Shown one piece after another: positions 39,741 through 52,248 of a DNA stretch of 64,000 bases; position 1 is the stretch's first letter; each line of letters begins with the position of its first letter. The notes below the pieces were generated by a model. The model did not search any database. It worked only from the letters and a program-made list of their open reading frames with translations, and was not told the origin of the DNA. The stretch lies in the sequence record OL770073.2, one strand, 5' to 3'. This stretch comes from Escherichia phage vB_EcoM-RPN226. Both the position numbers and the translations under genes were made by a program.

Positions 39741-39813
39741 TGGGAATTAGCCAAGTTGGTAAGGCATAGCACTTTGACTGCTAGATGCAAAGGTTCGAGT
39801 CCTTTATTCCCAG
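39741..39813 (+). tRNA. tRNA-Gln (anticodon TTG)
   Basis: acceptor stem TGGGAAT/ATTCCCA, T-arm GGTTCGAGTCC, anticodon loop CTTTGAC read by hand. Confidence 0.8.
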
Positions 39814-39814
39814 C

Positions 39815-39901
39815 GCGAGAATGGTCAAATTGGTAAAGGCACAGCACTTAAAATGCTGCGGAATGATTTCCTTGTGGGTTCGAGTCCCACTTCTCGTACC
39901 A
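39815..39901 (+). tRNA. tRNA-Leu (anticodon TAA)
   Basis: acceptor GCGAGAA/TTCTCGT, long variable arm, T-arm GGTTCGAGTCC, encoded CCA; forms a dimer unit with tRNA-Gln. Confidence 0.8.
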
Positions 39902-39907
39902 AAGTTT

Positions 39908-39979
<72 letters not shown>

Positions 39980-39992
39980 AAATTTAATTTAC

Positions 39993-40065
39993 TCCGTGTA
40001 GCTCAGTTTGGTAGAGCGTCTGCTTTGGGAGCAGAATGTCGCAGGTTCAAATCCTGCCGCGGAGA
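39993..40065 (+). tRNA. tRNA-Pro (anticodon TGG)
   Basis: D-arm TAGCTCAGTTTGGTAGAGC, anticodon loop TTTGGGA, T-arm GGTTCAAATCC. Confidence 0.8.
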
Positions 40066-40067
40066 CT

Positions 40068-40154
40068 GGAGGCGTGGCAGAGTGGTTTAATGCACCGGTC
40101 TTGAAAACCGGCAGTCGCTCCGGCGACTCATAGGTTCAAATCCTATCGCCTCCG
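40068..40154 (+). tRNA. tRNA-Ser (anticodon TGA)
   Basis: acceptor GGAGGCG/CGCCTCC, long variable arm, anticodon loop CTTGAAA, T-arm GGTTCAAATCC. Confidence 0.8.
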
Positions 40155-40161
40155 TAATTTC

Positions 40162-40234
40162 GCTGATTTAGCTCAGTAGGTAGAGCAACTCACTTGTAAT
40201 GAGGATGTCGGCGGTTCGATTCCGTCAATCAGCA
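40162..40234 (+). tRNA. tRNA-Thr (anticodon TGT)
   Basis: acceptor GCTGATT/AATCAGC, D-arm TAGCTCAGTAGGTAGAGC, anticodon loop CTTGTAA, T-arm GGTTCGATTCC. Confidence 0.8.
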
Positions 40235-40240
40235 TATCAA

Positions 40241-40312
40241 GGCCCTGTAGCTGGAAGGTTCAAGCAAGCGACTCATAATCGCCAGATGGTGGTTCAATTC
40301 CACCCAGGGCCA
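40241..40312 (+). tRNA. tRNA with CAT anticodon (Ile by T4 analogy, would be called Met by anticodon alone)
   Basis: acceptor GGCCCTG/CAGGGCC, anticodon loop CTCATAA, T-arm GGTTCAATTCC. Confidence 0.7.
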
Positions 40313-40319
40313 TATTTTG

Positions 40320-40360
40320 GGAACATAAATACTCTTAGAAATAGGAGATATTTATGTTCC
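40320..40360 (+). promoter_or_regulatory. 12-bp perfect hairpin sequestering segB start codon; SD in loop
   Basis: GGAACATAAATA (40320-40331) pairs with TATTTATGTTCC (40349-40360); ATG 40354-40356 in 3' arm; loop carries AGGAGA; 5' arm contains CATAAATA, a near-late-promoter. Confidence 0.6.
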
Positions 40361-41019
40361 ATTACACTTATAAAATAACAAATAAAATTAATAATAAAAT
40401 CTATATAGGCGCTCATTCTACCGAAAATTTAGATGATGGATATATGGGTTCTGGTAAATTATTAAAAAGAGCCCAAGACAAGTATGGTATAGAAAATTTC
40501 TCTAAAGAAATATTAGAGTTCTTTGACGATAAAACCTCTATGTTTGAGTCAGAAAAGAATATTGTGACTGAAGAGTTTTTAAAGCGCCCTGATGTTTATA
40601 ATTTGAAATTAGGTGGTGAAGGTGGTTGGGACCATTTAAACACTAAAGAATATTTGGATAAAAAGAAAGAAGCTTCCTTAAAAGGGGCTGCTGCTTTTAA
40701 AACCAGATTTGAGAACGACCCAGACCTTAAAGAAAAATATCGTAAAATGGGTTCAGAAAGGTTTAAACAGCTTTGGGATAATCCTAAGTATAGAGAGAAA
40801 TTTTTAAATACTAAATCTTTCTTGGGTAAGACCCATACTCCTGAAACTATTAATAAAATGAAAGAATCTCACGCCAAAAATAAACACCAACAAGGCGAAA
40901 AGAATTCCCAATTTGGTATGATGTGGATTCATTCATTAGATGAAAAAGTTTCTAAACGTATTAAGAAAACTGACCCAATTCCAGAAGGATGGTTTAAAGG
41001 TCGAAAAATGAAATTTTAA
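40354..41019 (+). CDS. segB: GIY-YIG homing endonuclease SegB-like, embedded in tRNA cluster
   Basis: 221 aa, GIY-YIG motifs YTYKITN...KIYIGAH; start codon sits in the 3' arm of a 12-bp perfect hairpin. Confidence 0.8.
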   Translation: MFHYTYKITNKINNKIYIGAHSTENLDDGYMGSGKLLKRAQDKYGIENFSKEILEFFDDKTSMFESEKNIVTEEFLKRPDVYNLKLGGEGGWDHLNTKEYLDKKKEASLKGAAAFKTRFENDPDLKEKYRKMGSERFKQLWDNPKYREKFLNTKSFLGKTHTPETINKMKESHAKNKHQQGEKNSQFGMMWIHSLDEKVSKRIKKTDPIPEGWFKGRKMKF

Positions 41020-41022
41020 TTA

Positions 41023-41099
<77 letters not shown>

Positions 41100-49270: not shown

Positions 49271-49732
49271 ATGACTATCAACACAGAAGTTTTTATCCGT
49301 CGAAATAAACTCCGTCGTCACTTTGAGTCGGAGTTTCGTCAAATTAACAATGAGATTCGTGAGGCATCAAAAGCAGCAGGGGTCTCATCGTTTCATCTAA
49401 AATATTCTCAGCATCTTCTTGATCGTGCAATTCAACGGGAGATCGATGAGACATATGTTTTTGAATTATTCCATAAAATAAAAGACCATGTTTTAGAAGT
49501 TAATGAATTCCTGAGTATGCCTCCGCGTCCTGACATTGACGAGGATTTTATTGATGGGGTTGAATATCGTCCTGGGCGTTTAGAAATCACAGATGGAAAT
49601 CTTTGGCTTGGATTTACAGTTTGTAAACCTAATGCGAAGTTCAAAGACCCGTCACTTCAATGTAGGATGGCCATTATCAACAGTCGTCGTTTACCAGGAA
49701 AGGCTTCTAAAGCAGTAATTAAAACTCAATGA
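49271..49732 (+). CDS. regB: endoribonuclease RegB
   Basis: 153 aa, matches T4 RegB length and position; early promoter with TATAAT at 49248. Confidence 0.8.
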   Translation: MTINTEVFIRRNKLRRHFESEFRQINNEIREASKAAGVSSFHLKYSQHLLDRAIQREIDETYVFELFHKIKDHVLEVNEFLSMPPRPDIDEDFIDGVEYRPGRLEITDGNLWLGFTVCKPNAKFKDPSLQCRMAIINSRRLPGKASKAVIKTQ

Positions 49733-49739
49733 GGTAAGC

Positions 49740-50285
49740 ATGAGAAAAGCACTACTCGCTGGTCTATTGGCCATTTCAATGATGGCACATAGCTCCGAGC
49801 ATACTTTCAGTAATGTCCAACTCGATAACATGCGTTACGCGTATCAATTCGGGGAACAATTTTCTAAGGATGGAAAATATAAAACACACAAAAATATCCA
49901 CAAGAGCGGATTAGGTCATATAATGGCTGCTATTTTATGGCAAGAAAGCTCTGCCGGAGTTAATTTAAAATCTAAGCCAAAGCATCATGCCTACGGAATG
50001 TTCCAAAATTATTTGCCGACCATGCGTGCAAGAGTTAAGGAACTTGGTTATAATATGACCGATGCCGAAATAAAAAGAATGTTGAATAAACGGTCCAATT
50101 CAGCTTCCTGGGCGTACATTGAACTTTCTTATTGGTTAAATATACATAAGGGTGATATAAGAAAGGCAATATCCTCTTATAATTCGGGATGGAATGTTAA
50201 AGCAGGTTCTAAATATGCTTCTGAAGTCCTAGAAAAGGCTAATTACCTTAAAAATAATAAACTTTTGGAAATAGTAAATGACTAA
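49740..50285 (+). CDS. secreted lytic transglycosylase-like protein
   Basis: N-terminal signal peptide; SLT-like motifs WQESS, GMFQ, SYNSG. Confidence 0.5.
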   Translation: MRKALLAGLLAISMMAHSSEHTFSNVQLDNMRYAYQFGEQFSKDGKYKTHKNIHKSGLGHIMAAILWQESSAGVNLKSKPKHHAYGMFQNYLPTMRARVKELGYNMTDAEIKRMLNKRSNSASWAYIELSYWLNIHKGDIRKAISSYNSGWNVKAGSKYASEVLEKANYLKNNKLLEIVND

Positions 50286-50625
50286 AATTTTGGTTTTATG
50301 CATAGGATTAATTTCATTTTCTGCTTCTGCGTCAGCAGATGCATCATATACTGAAATTAGAGAATATGTAAACCGTACTGCCGCGGATTATTGTGGGAAA
50401 AATAAAGCATGCCAAGCTGAATTTGCGCAGAAATTAATATATGCATATAAAGACGGGGAAAGAGATAAATTAAGCAGATACAAAAATGATACTTTATTAA
50501 AACGATATGCTAAAAAGTGGAATACCTTAGAATGTTCAGTTGCGGAGGAGAAAGATAAAGCCGCTTGTCATTCAATGGTTGACCGTTTGGTAGATTCTTA
50601 TAATCGAGGATTGAGTACTAAATGA
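50278..50625 (+). CDS. secreted/periplasmic small protein
   Basis: 115 aa, signal peptide MTKILVLCIGLISFSASASA, four Cys. Confidence 0.45.
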   Translation: MTKILVLCIGLISFSASASADASYTEIREYVNRTAADYCGKNKACQAEFAQKLIYAYKDGERDKLSRYKNDTLLKRYAKKWNTLECSVAEEKDKAACHSMVDRLVDSYNRGLSTK

Positions 50626-51089
50626 TTGTAAAATATATCAAGGGCGATATTGTCGCCCTGTTTTCTAAAGGTAATAATATTGCTCATGGGTGTAATTGTT
50701 TTCATACAATGGGCGCCGGTGTGGCAGGACAATTAGCAAAGGCTTATCCAAAAATTCTGGAAGCTGATAAACTACAGACTGAATGGGGTGATGTAACTAA
50801 ACTTGGTTCTTATTCAGTCTATGAAAAATACTTTAGGACCCATAAAGCTTATTGCTTTAATCTTTATACACAGTTTGAGCCGGGACCTAATTTTGAGTAC
50901 TTTGCTTTAATGAATTGTATAATAGAATTAAATGAATTCGGAAAGAATAAAATAACAAAGCCTGTAATTTATATGCCAAGAATTGGTGCAGGTATCGGTG
51001 GCGGAAACTGGGATGTAATCGAAGAGATTTTAGATACGTATTCCACTAAACTAGAAATTGTGATTGTTGATTGGGAACCATTATTATGA
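50622..51089 (+). CDS. macro-domain-like protein (possible ADP-ribose derivative processing)
   Basis: motif AHGCNCFHTMGAGVAGQLAKAYP and later PRIGAGIGGGNW, reminiscent of Poa1-type macro domains. Confidence 0.45.
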   Translation: MIVKYIKGDIVALFSKGNNIAHGCNCFHTMGAGVAGQLAKAYPKILEADKLQTEWGDVTKLGSYSVYEKYFRTHKAYCFNLYTQFEPGPNFEYFALMNCIIELNEFGKNKITKPVIYMPRIGAGIGGGNWDVIEEILDTYSTKLEIVIVDWEPLL

Positions 51090-51298
51090 ATATACATTAT
51101 CCACATCCATACGACCCAAAGAATAAGGCAGTAATTATTCGTCAATGGGAACGCATTTGCCGTACTAAATGTCCAATTAATAGTCCGCATGATGTAGATA
51201 AAGACTACATTGGAACATTCGTCGAATATACCTTTATTGATAAGAAAGGTCGTAAACAGCATGTAGAAGAATACTGCTTAAAGGTGACATGGTTATGA
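51086..51298 (+). CDS. hypothetical protein
   Basis: start MNIHYPH overlapping previous stop. Confidence 0.4.
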   Translation: MNIHYPHPYDPKNKAVIIRQWERICRTKCPINSPHDVDKDYIGTFVEYTFIDKKGRKQHVEEYCLKVTWL

Positions 51299-51480
51299 GT
51301 TTAAGTAAAGAACAAAAAGACAAACTCTTTTCTCTTATCCATGGAGTTATGGATAAAAATAGTGAATTGGAAAAAGTTTGTGATGAATGCGGTCCTTTTA
51401 GCGCAAACGAGTACGAAGAACTTTCTAAAGAATTCGATAATAAAGAACAAGAACTCATTGATTATATAAATTCCTTATGA
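51289..51480 (+). CDS. hypothetical protein
   Basis: 63-aa ORF in operon context. Confidence 0.35.
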   Translation: MVMSLSKEQKDKLFSLIHGVMDKNSELEKVCDECGPFSANEYEELSKEFDNKEQELIDYINSL

Positions 51481-51665
51481 TTACTCGCGAACAAAAGAAC
51501 GAAATATTATTTTTAGTTAGTGAAATTATTAGTTTAGAAAAGGATTTGTCTTTTGAATTATCTTCTGATTATGGAGATGACGAAACATATTACGAATTAG
51601 TAAAATCTATCGATAAAGCTGAAAATGATTTAAAAACATATTTAGAAAATTTAACTAAGGGCTAA
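51477..51665 (+). CDS. hypothetical protein
   Basis: 62-aa ORF in operon context, similar length and composition to the preceding ORF. Confidence 0.35.
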   Translation: MITREQKNEILFLVSEIISLEKDLSFELSSDYGDDETYYELVKSIDKAENDLKTYLENLTKG

Positions 51666-51666
51666 G

Positions 51667-52248
51667 ATGGCGAGTTTAATTTTTACTTATGCAGCAATGA
51701 ATGCTGGAAAATCTGCTTCTCTTTTGACTGCTGCGCATAATTATAAAGAACGTGGAATGAGTGTATTAGTTCTTAAGCCTGCTATTGATACTCGCGATTC
51801 TGTCTGTGAAGTCGTTTCTCGCATTGGAATTAAGCAGGAAGCGAATATTATTACAGATGATATGGATATTTTTGAGTTCTATAAATGGGCTGAAGCACAA
51901 AAAGATATTCATTGCGTATTTGTAGATGAAGCACAGTTTTTAAAAACTGAACAGGTGCATCAATTAAGCCGAATTGTCGATACATATAATGTTCCTGTTA
52001 TGGCTTATGGTCTAAGGACTGATTTCGCTGGAAAATTATTTGAAGGTTCTAAAGAACTTTTGGCGATTGCAGATAAACTTATTGAACTAAAAGCAGTTTG
52101 TCATTGCGGTAAAAAAGCGATTATGACAGCTCGATTAATGGAAGATGGAACACCAGTTAAAGAAGGTAATCAAATCTGTATTGGTGATGAAATTTATGTT
52201 TCTTTGTGCAGAAAACATTGGAATGAATTAACTAAAAAGCTCGGTTAG
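51667..52248 (+). CDS. tk: thymidine kinase
   Basis: 193 aa, P-loop AMNAGKSAS, C-terminal Cys cluster; matches T4 Tk. Confidence 0.9.
   Translation: MASLIFTYAAMNAGKSASLLTAAHNYKERGMSVLVLKPAIDTRDSVCEVVSRIGIKQEANIITDDMDIFEFYKWAEAQKDIHCVFVDEAQFLKTEQVHQLSRIVDTYNVPVMAYGLRTDFAGKLFEGSKELLAIADKLIELKAVCHCGKKAIMTARLMEDGTPVKEGNQICIGDEIYVSLCRKHWNELTKKLG

What the first reader, a model, noticed from the sequence alone, without database searches (positions are those of the whole stretch)
50622..51089. Macro-like domain protein in the vs-tk early region
Motifs AHGCNCFHTMGAGVAGQLA and PRIGAGIGGGNW resemble Poa1-type macro domains that bind or process ADP-ribose derivatives. In a phage this could reverse ADP-ribosylation-based defence (DarT-type DNA ADP-ribosylation) or process ADP-ribose-1''-phosphate from RNA repair. 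The assignment is by motif memory only.
Basis: inference. Interest (0 to 1): 0.55.

Follow-up and report, generated by a model that had tools for sequence, protein, structure and literature searches.

The report
Phage T4 Tk.4/AdfM macrodomain ortholog

Summary
The ORF at 50622-51089 (+) is real. It encodes 155 aa and contains both quoted motifs. It is the ortholog of phage T4 tk.4: 88% aa identity and the same regB-vs.1-vs-tk.4-tk.3-tk order.

The macro/A1pp assignment for tk.4 was published in 2006 and is in the T4 RefSeq record. A 2025 preprint (HIDEN-SEQ) found tk.4 as the only T4 gene depleted on a DarTG2 host. A clean knockout became DarTG2-sensitive, and the gene was named adfM.

Two refinements from this work:
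- **Active site.** The family has an invariant Gln (Q84) where DarG and TARG1 have their catalytic Lys, plus an invariant Asn25. This is the arrangement of Streptomyces SCO6735, which cleaves thymidine-linked ADP-ribose from DNA. The protein is therefore not DarG-type, and it belongs to a different subfamily from the PhiKZ protein also named AdfM.
- **Divergence.** tk.4 is a divergence island: dS is 0.82 against about 0.1 in flanking genes, and dN/dS is 0.07. This indicates allele exchange under purifying selection.

Biochemistry of this protein remains untested.

The parts
50622..51089 (+). tk.4 / adfM ortholog: single-domain macrodomain protein of 155 aa (coordinates include the stop codon)
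50682..50738 (+). Residues 21-39, AHGCNCFHTMGAGVAGQLA: first ADP-ribose-binding loop, with near-invariant H22 and invariant G23, N25, G33 and A35
   Evidence: Conservation across 63 and 121 family members. Aligns with the N-x-x-G-x-G loop of DarG, SCO6735, BT1257 and Poa1p.
50694..50696 (+). Asn25 codon (AAT). It is equivalent to SCO6735 Asn27 (N27S nearly inactive), to the conserved Asn of DarG, and to PhiKZ AdfM N23
   Evidence: Invariant in 120 of 120 aligned residues. Alignment. Mutant data in PMC9411070 and PMC13309987.
50871..50873 (+). Gln84 codon (CAG). It occupies the position of the catalytic Lys of TARG1 (K84) and DarG (K80), and of the essential Gln85 of SCO6735
   Evidence: Invariant in 121 of 121. 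Alignments. SCO6735 Q85A is inactive (PMC9411070).
50976..51011 (+). Residues 119-130, PRIGAGIGGGNW: glycine-rich phosphate-binding loop. Gly126 sits where TARG1 has Asp125
   Evidence: P119, I121, G122, G124 and W130 are invariant. Aligned with PRIGCGLAGG of BT1257/SCO6735 and PRIGCGLDRLQW of TARG1.
50278..50625 (+). vs (valyl-tRNA synthetase modifier), the upstream neighbour. Its stop overlaps the tk.4 start (ATGA)
51086..51298 (+). tk.3, the downstream neighbour. Its ATG at 51086 overlaps the tk.4 stop (ATGA), and the protein is 100% identical to T4 Tk.3

Best explanation
The ORF is the ortholog of phage T4 tk.4 (adfM), an early-region, single-domain macrodomain enzyme that works as an orphan antitoxin. 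When the host DarT2 toxin ADP-ribosylates thymidines in single-stranded phage DNA, which blocks replication, the protein binds the ADP-ribose in its macro cleft and hydrolyses the thymine-ribose bond. This restores unmodified DNA and lets the phage escape DarTG2. Its active site is the Gln type known from Streptomyces SCO6735: Gln84, held by Asn25, positions the distal ribose for water-mediated cleavage. It is not the Lys type of DarG or TARG1. Shown here: gene, orthology, fold, conserved residues and purifying selection. Shown in the literature for T4 only: tk.4 is required to resist DarTG2. Inferred: the enzymatic step for this protein, and the transfer of the phenotype to this 88%-identical allele.
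Against: No biochemical assay of T4 Tk.4 or of this allele turned up in the literature searches; the T4 preprint itself infers the hydrolysis step. The DarG catalytic Lys is absent, and the family also lacks the longer 'mobile loop' of SCO6735/BT1257, so it is an exact copy of neither characterised enzyme. The allele differs from T4's at 18 of 155 residues. Catalytically dead SCO6735 still inhibits DarT in vitro, so protection without hydrolysis is conceivable. Databases label the family 'phosphatase'.
Confidence: 0.75

Rival explanations
1. It is an ADP-ribose-1''-phosphate phosphatase like yeast Poa1p (the 'phosphatase' label in RefSeq and PHROGs). It would clear a by-product of 2'-phosphotransferase RNA repair or splicing, with no role in defence.
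Against: The label comes from domain naming (SMART A1pp, 2006), not from an assay. From general knowledge, T4's own RNA repair (Pnkp plus Rnl1) leaves no 2'-phosphate, so no Appr-1''-p is expected. The T4 knockout has a specific DarTG2 phenotype. The residue aligned with Poa1p S30 is Thr29. I could not establish what Poa1p has at the Q84 position.
Confidence: 0.07
2. It protects mainly without catalysis, by binding and inhibiting DarT2 or by shielding ADP-ribosylated DNA, as DarG partly does through direct toxin binding.
For: Catalytically dead SCO6735 Q85A inhibited DarT in vitro more strongly than dead DarG or TARG1 (PMC9411070). The T4 data are genetic only.
Against: The protein is a bare macrodomain of 155 aa without DarG's C-terminal toxin-binding domain; it matches only positions 2-146 of the 338-position DarG profile. 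Strict invariance of N25 and Q84 points to selection on the active site. The PhiKZ macrodomain anti-DarT factor works enzymatically (PMC13309987).
Confidence: 0.08
3. Its main substrate is another ADP-ribosylated molecule: proteins modified by T4's own Alt, ModA or ModB, Glu/Asp-ADP-ribosylated host proteins, uracil-ADP-ribosylated RNA, or O-acetyl-ADP-ribose. DarT2 reversal would then be a side activity.
For: SCO6735 and TARG1 also act on Glu/Asp-linked protein ADP-ribose and on uracil-ADP-ribose in RNA (PMC9411070; PMC13036486). JGI labels relatives 'O-acetyl-ADP-ribose deacetylase'. The family occurs in 2782 phage records across many host genera.
Confidence: 0.1

Closest known systems
Phage T4 Tk.4 = AdfM (anti-DarT factor Macrodomain; NP_049723; bioRxiv 10.1101/2025.11.20.689424)
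   Same: Same length (155 aa) and 88% identity without gaps. Same position between vs and tk.3, with overlapping start and stop codons. Same conserved motifs.
   Different: 18 substitutions, for example G127 here where T4 has K127 in the glycine loop. At the DNA level the gene is far more diverged (85% identity, dS 0.82) than its 96-98% identical neighbours, so it is a different allele brought in by recombination. The closest database allele is 94.8% identical.
Streptomyces coelicolor SCO6735 and Bacteroides BT1257 (PDB 5E3B, 2FG1/2AFC), Gln-type ALC1/TARG1-like macrodomains
   Different: Only about 25-29% identity. The phage family lacks the 5-6 residue longer mobile loop that defines the SCO6735/BT1257 subclass. 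It is phage-encoded and serves counter-defence, not a cellular function.
DarG antitoxin of DarTG2 (PDB 5M31, 5M3I, 7OMU; NCBIfam NF048014)
   Different: 33 bits against an equivalog cut-off of 250. No C-terminal DarT-binding domain. Gln replaces the catalytic Lys80. No adjacent darT gene.
PhiKZ gp104, also named AdfM (PMC13309987)
   Same: A phage-encoded single macrodomain that counters DarTG2. Removal of ADP-ribose from DarT2-modified DNA was shown in vitro, and the N23A mutant is impaired.
   Different: It is a true DarG-like protein (E 9e-25 to Mtb DarG, with the FPTK lysine motif). It is barely alignable with the window protein (23 residues by BLASTP; hhalign probability 95.9). The shared name therefore covers two macro subfamilies, probably acquired separately.
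Yeast Poa1p (PDB 6LFQ) and human TARG1 (PDB 4J5R)
   Different: Poa1p is known as an ADP-ribose-1''-phosphate phosphatase. TARG1 uses Lys84 and Asp125, which are Gln84 and Gly126 here.

Membership tests
Macro domain superfamily (Pfam PF01661) | Profile score above the curated gathering threshold | tested here: met
   25.3 bits against a cut-off of 22, covering residues 22-136 and profile positions 2-117 of 118
Macro domain superfamily (Pfam PF01661) | Three-layer alpha/beta/alpha macro fold | tested here: met
Macro domain superfamily (Pfam PF01661) | Binds ADP-ribose or a derivative | not testable with these tools
   Only inferred, from conserved loop residues
T4 Tk.4 / AdfM orthologous group | Full-length high sequence identity to T4 Tk.4 | tested here: met
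   137 of 155 residues identical, no gaps
T4 Tk.4 / AdfM orthologous group | Conserved position between vs and tk.3 in the regB-tk early block | tested here: met
T4 Tk.4 / AdfM orthologous group | Needed for growth on a DarTG2-expressing host | not testable with these tools
   Shown for T4 only
ALC1/TARG1-like macrodomain class | Closest structures are TARG1, DarG, SCO6735/BT1257 and Poa1p, not MacroD, viral or PARG types | tested here: met
DarG antitoxin (NCBIfam NF048014 equivalog) | Score at or above the equivalog cut-off | tested here: not met
   33.1 bits against 250; PADLOC DarG 34.4 bits
DarG antitoxin (NCBIfam NF048014 equivalog) | Catalytic lysine (Lys80) | tested here: not met
   Gln84 aligns with it and is invariant in the family
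DarG antitoxin (NCBIfam NF048014 equivalog) | C-terminal DarT-binding domain and an adjacent darT gene | tested here: not met
   155 aa, matching only profile positions 2-146 of 338. The neighbours are vs and tk.3.
SCO6735/BT1257 subclass | Gln at the catalytic-Lys position, held by a conserved Asn | tested here: met
   Q84 and N25 align with Q85 and N27 and are invariant
SCO6735/BT1257 subclass | Mobile loop about five residues longer than in DarG and TARG1 | tested here: not met
   SCO6735 and BT1257 show insertions after the Gln that the window protein lacks
Poa1p-type ADP-ribose-1''-phosphate phosphatase | Residues mutated in the Poa1p structures (H23, S30, F152) and phosphatase activity | tested here: inconclusive
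   H22 aligns with H23, and Thr29 aligns with S30. The middle of Poa1p could not be aligned reliably. Activity is not testable.
PhiKZ-type AdfM (gp104) | DarG-like sequence with the FPTK lysine motif | tested here: not met
   gp104 hits DarG at E 9e-25 but the window protein only at E 6e-4 over 23 residues

The most novel reading that the evidence does not exclude
T4-type AdfM would be a third mechanistic variant of thymidine-ADP-ribose hydrolase. It would be Gln-based like SCO6735 but with the short loop of DarG, and acquired by phages independently of the DarG-like PhiKZ AdfM. The sharp divergence island at tk.4 inside otherwise 96-100% identical Tequatrovirus genomes would reflect ongoing exchange of alleles matched to different DarT2 variants or to other ADP-ribosylating defences.
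Probability: 0.3. Interest if true: 0.45.

Novelty: already known. Interest (0 to 1): 0.2.

Why it matters
DarTG systems stop phages by ADP-ribosylating their DNA, and macrodomain erasers are one way phages escape. Knowing that this phage carries an adfM allele predicts resistance to DarTG2-bearing hosts, which matters for host-range prediction and for choosing phages for therapy. The Gln-for-Lys active site and the allele mosaicism are modest additions. They suggest that the two proteins called AdfM are not mechanistically equivalent, and that tk.4 alleles could be compared for substrate or toxin specificity.

Tried and rejected
It was rerun without that row.

2. I tried to learn which Poa1p residue sits at the Q84 position by adding a Poa1p fragment to a small profile. 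The alignment broke before that strand, so the point stays open.

3. A terminator-like hairpin inside the gene (50641-50659) was checked. It is identical in T4 and RB6, has a loop change in JS10 and is lost in Merlin. Its folding z-score is only -1.6. I treat it as not significant.

4. Apparent very low identity to T4 around 51,540-51,610 was an alignment artefact caused by extra ORFs in RB6 and JS10. Tk.2 and Tk.1 are 95% and 92% identical to T4.

5. The promoter scan gave no enrichment over shuffles: 15 found against 15.0 expected.

Full report
**Observation**

The window carries an ATG-to-TGA ORF at exactly 50622-51089 on the + strand, encoding 155 aa. AHGCNCFHTMGAGVAGQLA is residues 21-39 and PRIGAGIGGGNW is residues 119-130. 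The ORF sits in a tight same-strand array. Its ATG overlaps the TGA of the upstream gene (ATGA, 50622-50625), and its TGA overlaps the ATG of the downstream gene (ATGA, 51086-51089).

**Identity of the gene**

Megablast of 50000-51700 finds 657 phage records, nearly all T4-like phages of Escherichia and Shigella, with best identity 94%. In the T4 RefSeq record the matching gene is tk.4 (NP_049723). It is annotated 'phosphatase; contains A1pp phosphatase motif' and is flanked by regB, vs.1 and vs upstream and by tk.3, tk.2, tk.1 and tk downstream. The window has the same order. The protein is 137/155 (88%) identical to T4 Tk.4 without gaps. The same synteny holds in RB6 (Tequatrovirus), JS10 (Dhakavirus) and Merlin (Moonvirus). 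Other GenBank records already call the gene 'macro domain protein' or 'Poa1p-like family protein'. A 2006 comparative paper reported A1pp domain matches for tk.4 orthologs (PMC1524935).

**Is it a macrodomain?**

- **Sequence profiles.** Pfam Macro (PF01661) scores 25.3 bits, above the gathering cut-off of 22, over residues 22-136. PHROG 335 ('phosphatase') matches at E 6e-67.
- **Solved structures, by sequence.** A single-sequence search finds BT1257 (E 4e-10), Poa1p (1.7e-08), SCO6735, DarG macrodomains and TARG1. A 63-sequence family profile raises these to 5e-18 (BT1257), 1.4e-15 (SCO6735), 6.5e-15 (TARG1), 8e-14 (Poa1p) and 5e-13 (Mtb DarG).
- **Predicted fold.** An AlphaFold2 model built on that alignment has mean pLDDT 95.1 and pTM 0.90. 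Foldseek against the PDB returns TARG1, Poa1p, BT1257 and DarG first.

The protein belongs to the ALC1/TARG1-like class.

**What is known about function**

The HIDEN-SEQ preprint (bioRxiv 10.1101/2025.11.20.689424) infected a DarTG2-expressing E. coli with a T4 transposon library. It found tk.4 as the single significant depleted gene. A clean tk.4 knockout was sensitised to DarTG2, and the gene was named adfM (anti-DarT factor Macrodomain). The authors state that enzymatic removal of ADP-ribose from DNA 'seems likely', so the hydrolysis step is inferred. I found no biochemical assay of Tk.4 in the library.

**How it most likely works**

I aligned the family profile with TARG1, SCO6735, BT1257 and the two DarG macrodomains.

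- The window motif N-L-Y-T-Q(84)-F lines up with Y-L-I-T-K(84)-K of TARG1, with N-F-P-T-K(80)-K of DarG, and with N-M-I-G-Q(85)-H of SCO6735 and BT1257.
- The phage protein therefore has Gln where DarG and TARG1 have their catalytic Lys.
- It has Gly126 where TARG1 has Asp125.
- Q84 is invariant in 121 of 121 family sequences, and N25 in 120 of 120 aligned residues.

This is the active-site arrangement of SCO6735. That enzyme cleaves thymidine-linked ADP-ribose from DarT-modified DNA faster than DarG or TARG1. It does not act on guanosine-linked ADP-ribose, and it rescues DarT toxicity in cells. It is inactivated by Q85A and Q85E and almost inactivated by N27S. The authors propose a water-mediated mechanism in which Gln85, locked by Asn27, positions the distal ribose (PMC9411070). 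This makes thymidine-ADP-ribose hydrolysis by Tk.4 chemically plausible despite the missing Lys. It also predicts that N25 and Q84 are the residues to mutate.

The phage family is not a plain SCO6735 copy. It lacks the 5-6 residue longer 'mobile loop' that defines the SCO6735/BT1257 subclass.

**Relation to DarG and to the other 'AdfM'**

The protein fails every membership test for DarG itself:

- It scores 33 bits against an NCBIfam equivalog cut-off of 250.
- It has no C-terminal toxin-binding domain.
- It has no catalytic Lys.
- It has no neighbouring darT gene.

It works like a DarG macrodomain but is not one.

A 2026 Cell Reports paper independently named PhiKZ gp104 'AdfM' and showed that it removes DarT2 marks in vitro (PMC13309987). 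That protein is genuinely DarG-like, with E 9e-25 to Mtb DarG and the FPTK motif conserved. It aligns with the window protein over only 23 residues by BLASTP, and hhalign gives probability 95.9. The shared name thus covers two different macro subfamilies.

**Evolutionary context**

Against T4, tk.4 is 85.3% identical at the DNA level, with dS 0.82. regB, vs.1, vs, tk.3 and tk are 96-98% identical, with dS 0.09-0.15. dN/dS for tk.4 is 0.07. Against RB6, the flanks are 95-100% identical, but the interior of tk.4 (about 50,700-51,050) drops to 38-57%. The gene is therefore a divergence island with sharp boundaries. It has been exchanged as an allele by recombination and kept under purifying selection. 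It is not a decaying or fast-adapting gene. Homologs occur in 2782 of 50,697 phage records across many host genera.

**Rivals**

- **Poa1p-like phosphatase.** This reading rests on domain naming and on structural closeness to Poa1p. It has no assay behind it, and (from general knowledge) no obvious source of substrate in T4 infection.
- **Non-catalytic inhibition of DarT2.** This is conceivable because dead SCO6735 inhibits DarT in vitro. However, the strict conservation of the active-site pair argues for catalysis.
- **Other substrates.** Protein Glu/Asp-ADP-ribose and uracil-ADP-ribose RNA are possible secondary activities, because SCO6735 and TARG1 have them.

**Verdict**

It is the already described T4 tk.4/adfM gene in a T4-like phage, so its novelty is low. 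The Gln-type active site, the distinction from the PhiKZ AdfM and the allele mosaicism are modest refinements worth a bench test.

Noticed in passing
window 50700-51050 (interior of tk.4) compared with flanks 49271-50625 and 51086-52248: tk.4 is a sharp divergence island. Against T4 it has dS 0.82, compared with about 0.1 in the neighbouring genes, and dN/dS is 0.07. Against RB6 the flanks are 95-100% identical while the interior is 38-57% identical. This suggests allele replacement by recombination.
   Followed up: partly
window 50641-50659 (+), 20 nt inside tk.4: A GC-rich hairpin, AGGGCGA-TATTG-TCGCCCT, followed by GTTTTCT, was flagged as terminator-like. It is identical in T4 and RB6, has a loop change only in JS10, and is absent in Merlin. 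The folding z-score is only -1.6, so it is probably not meaningful.
   Followed up: yes
window 39741-41099 (+): A cluster of eight tRNA genes (Gln, Leu, Gly, Pro, Ser, Thr, Met, Arg), as expected for the T4 tRNA region.
   Followed up: no
L002 (RB6) 2155-2537 and L003 (JS10) 2143-2355: RB6 and JS10 carry one or two extra small ORFs between tk.3 and tk.2 that the window and T4 lack. Several megablast hits also show an insertion of about 370 bp here.
   Followed up: no
window 50278-50625 (vs): The HIDEN-SEQ preprint reports vs, the upstream neighbour, as the gene most strongly depleted in minimal medium compared with LB in T4. That would be a conditional requirement for this long-enigmatic gene.
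   Followed up: no
literature: PMC13309987 and bioRxiv 10.1101/2025.11.20.689424: Two groups independently gave the name AdfM to non-orthologous macrodomain proteins: PhiKZ gp104 (DarG-like, Lys type) and T4 Tk.4 (Gln type). This is a naming collision that could mislead annotation.
   Followed up: yes
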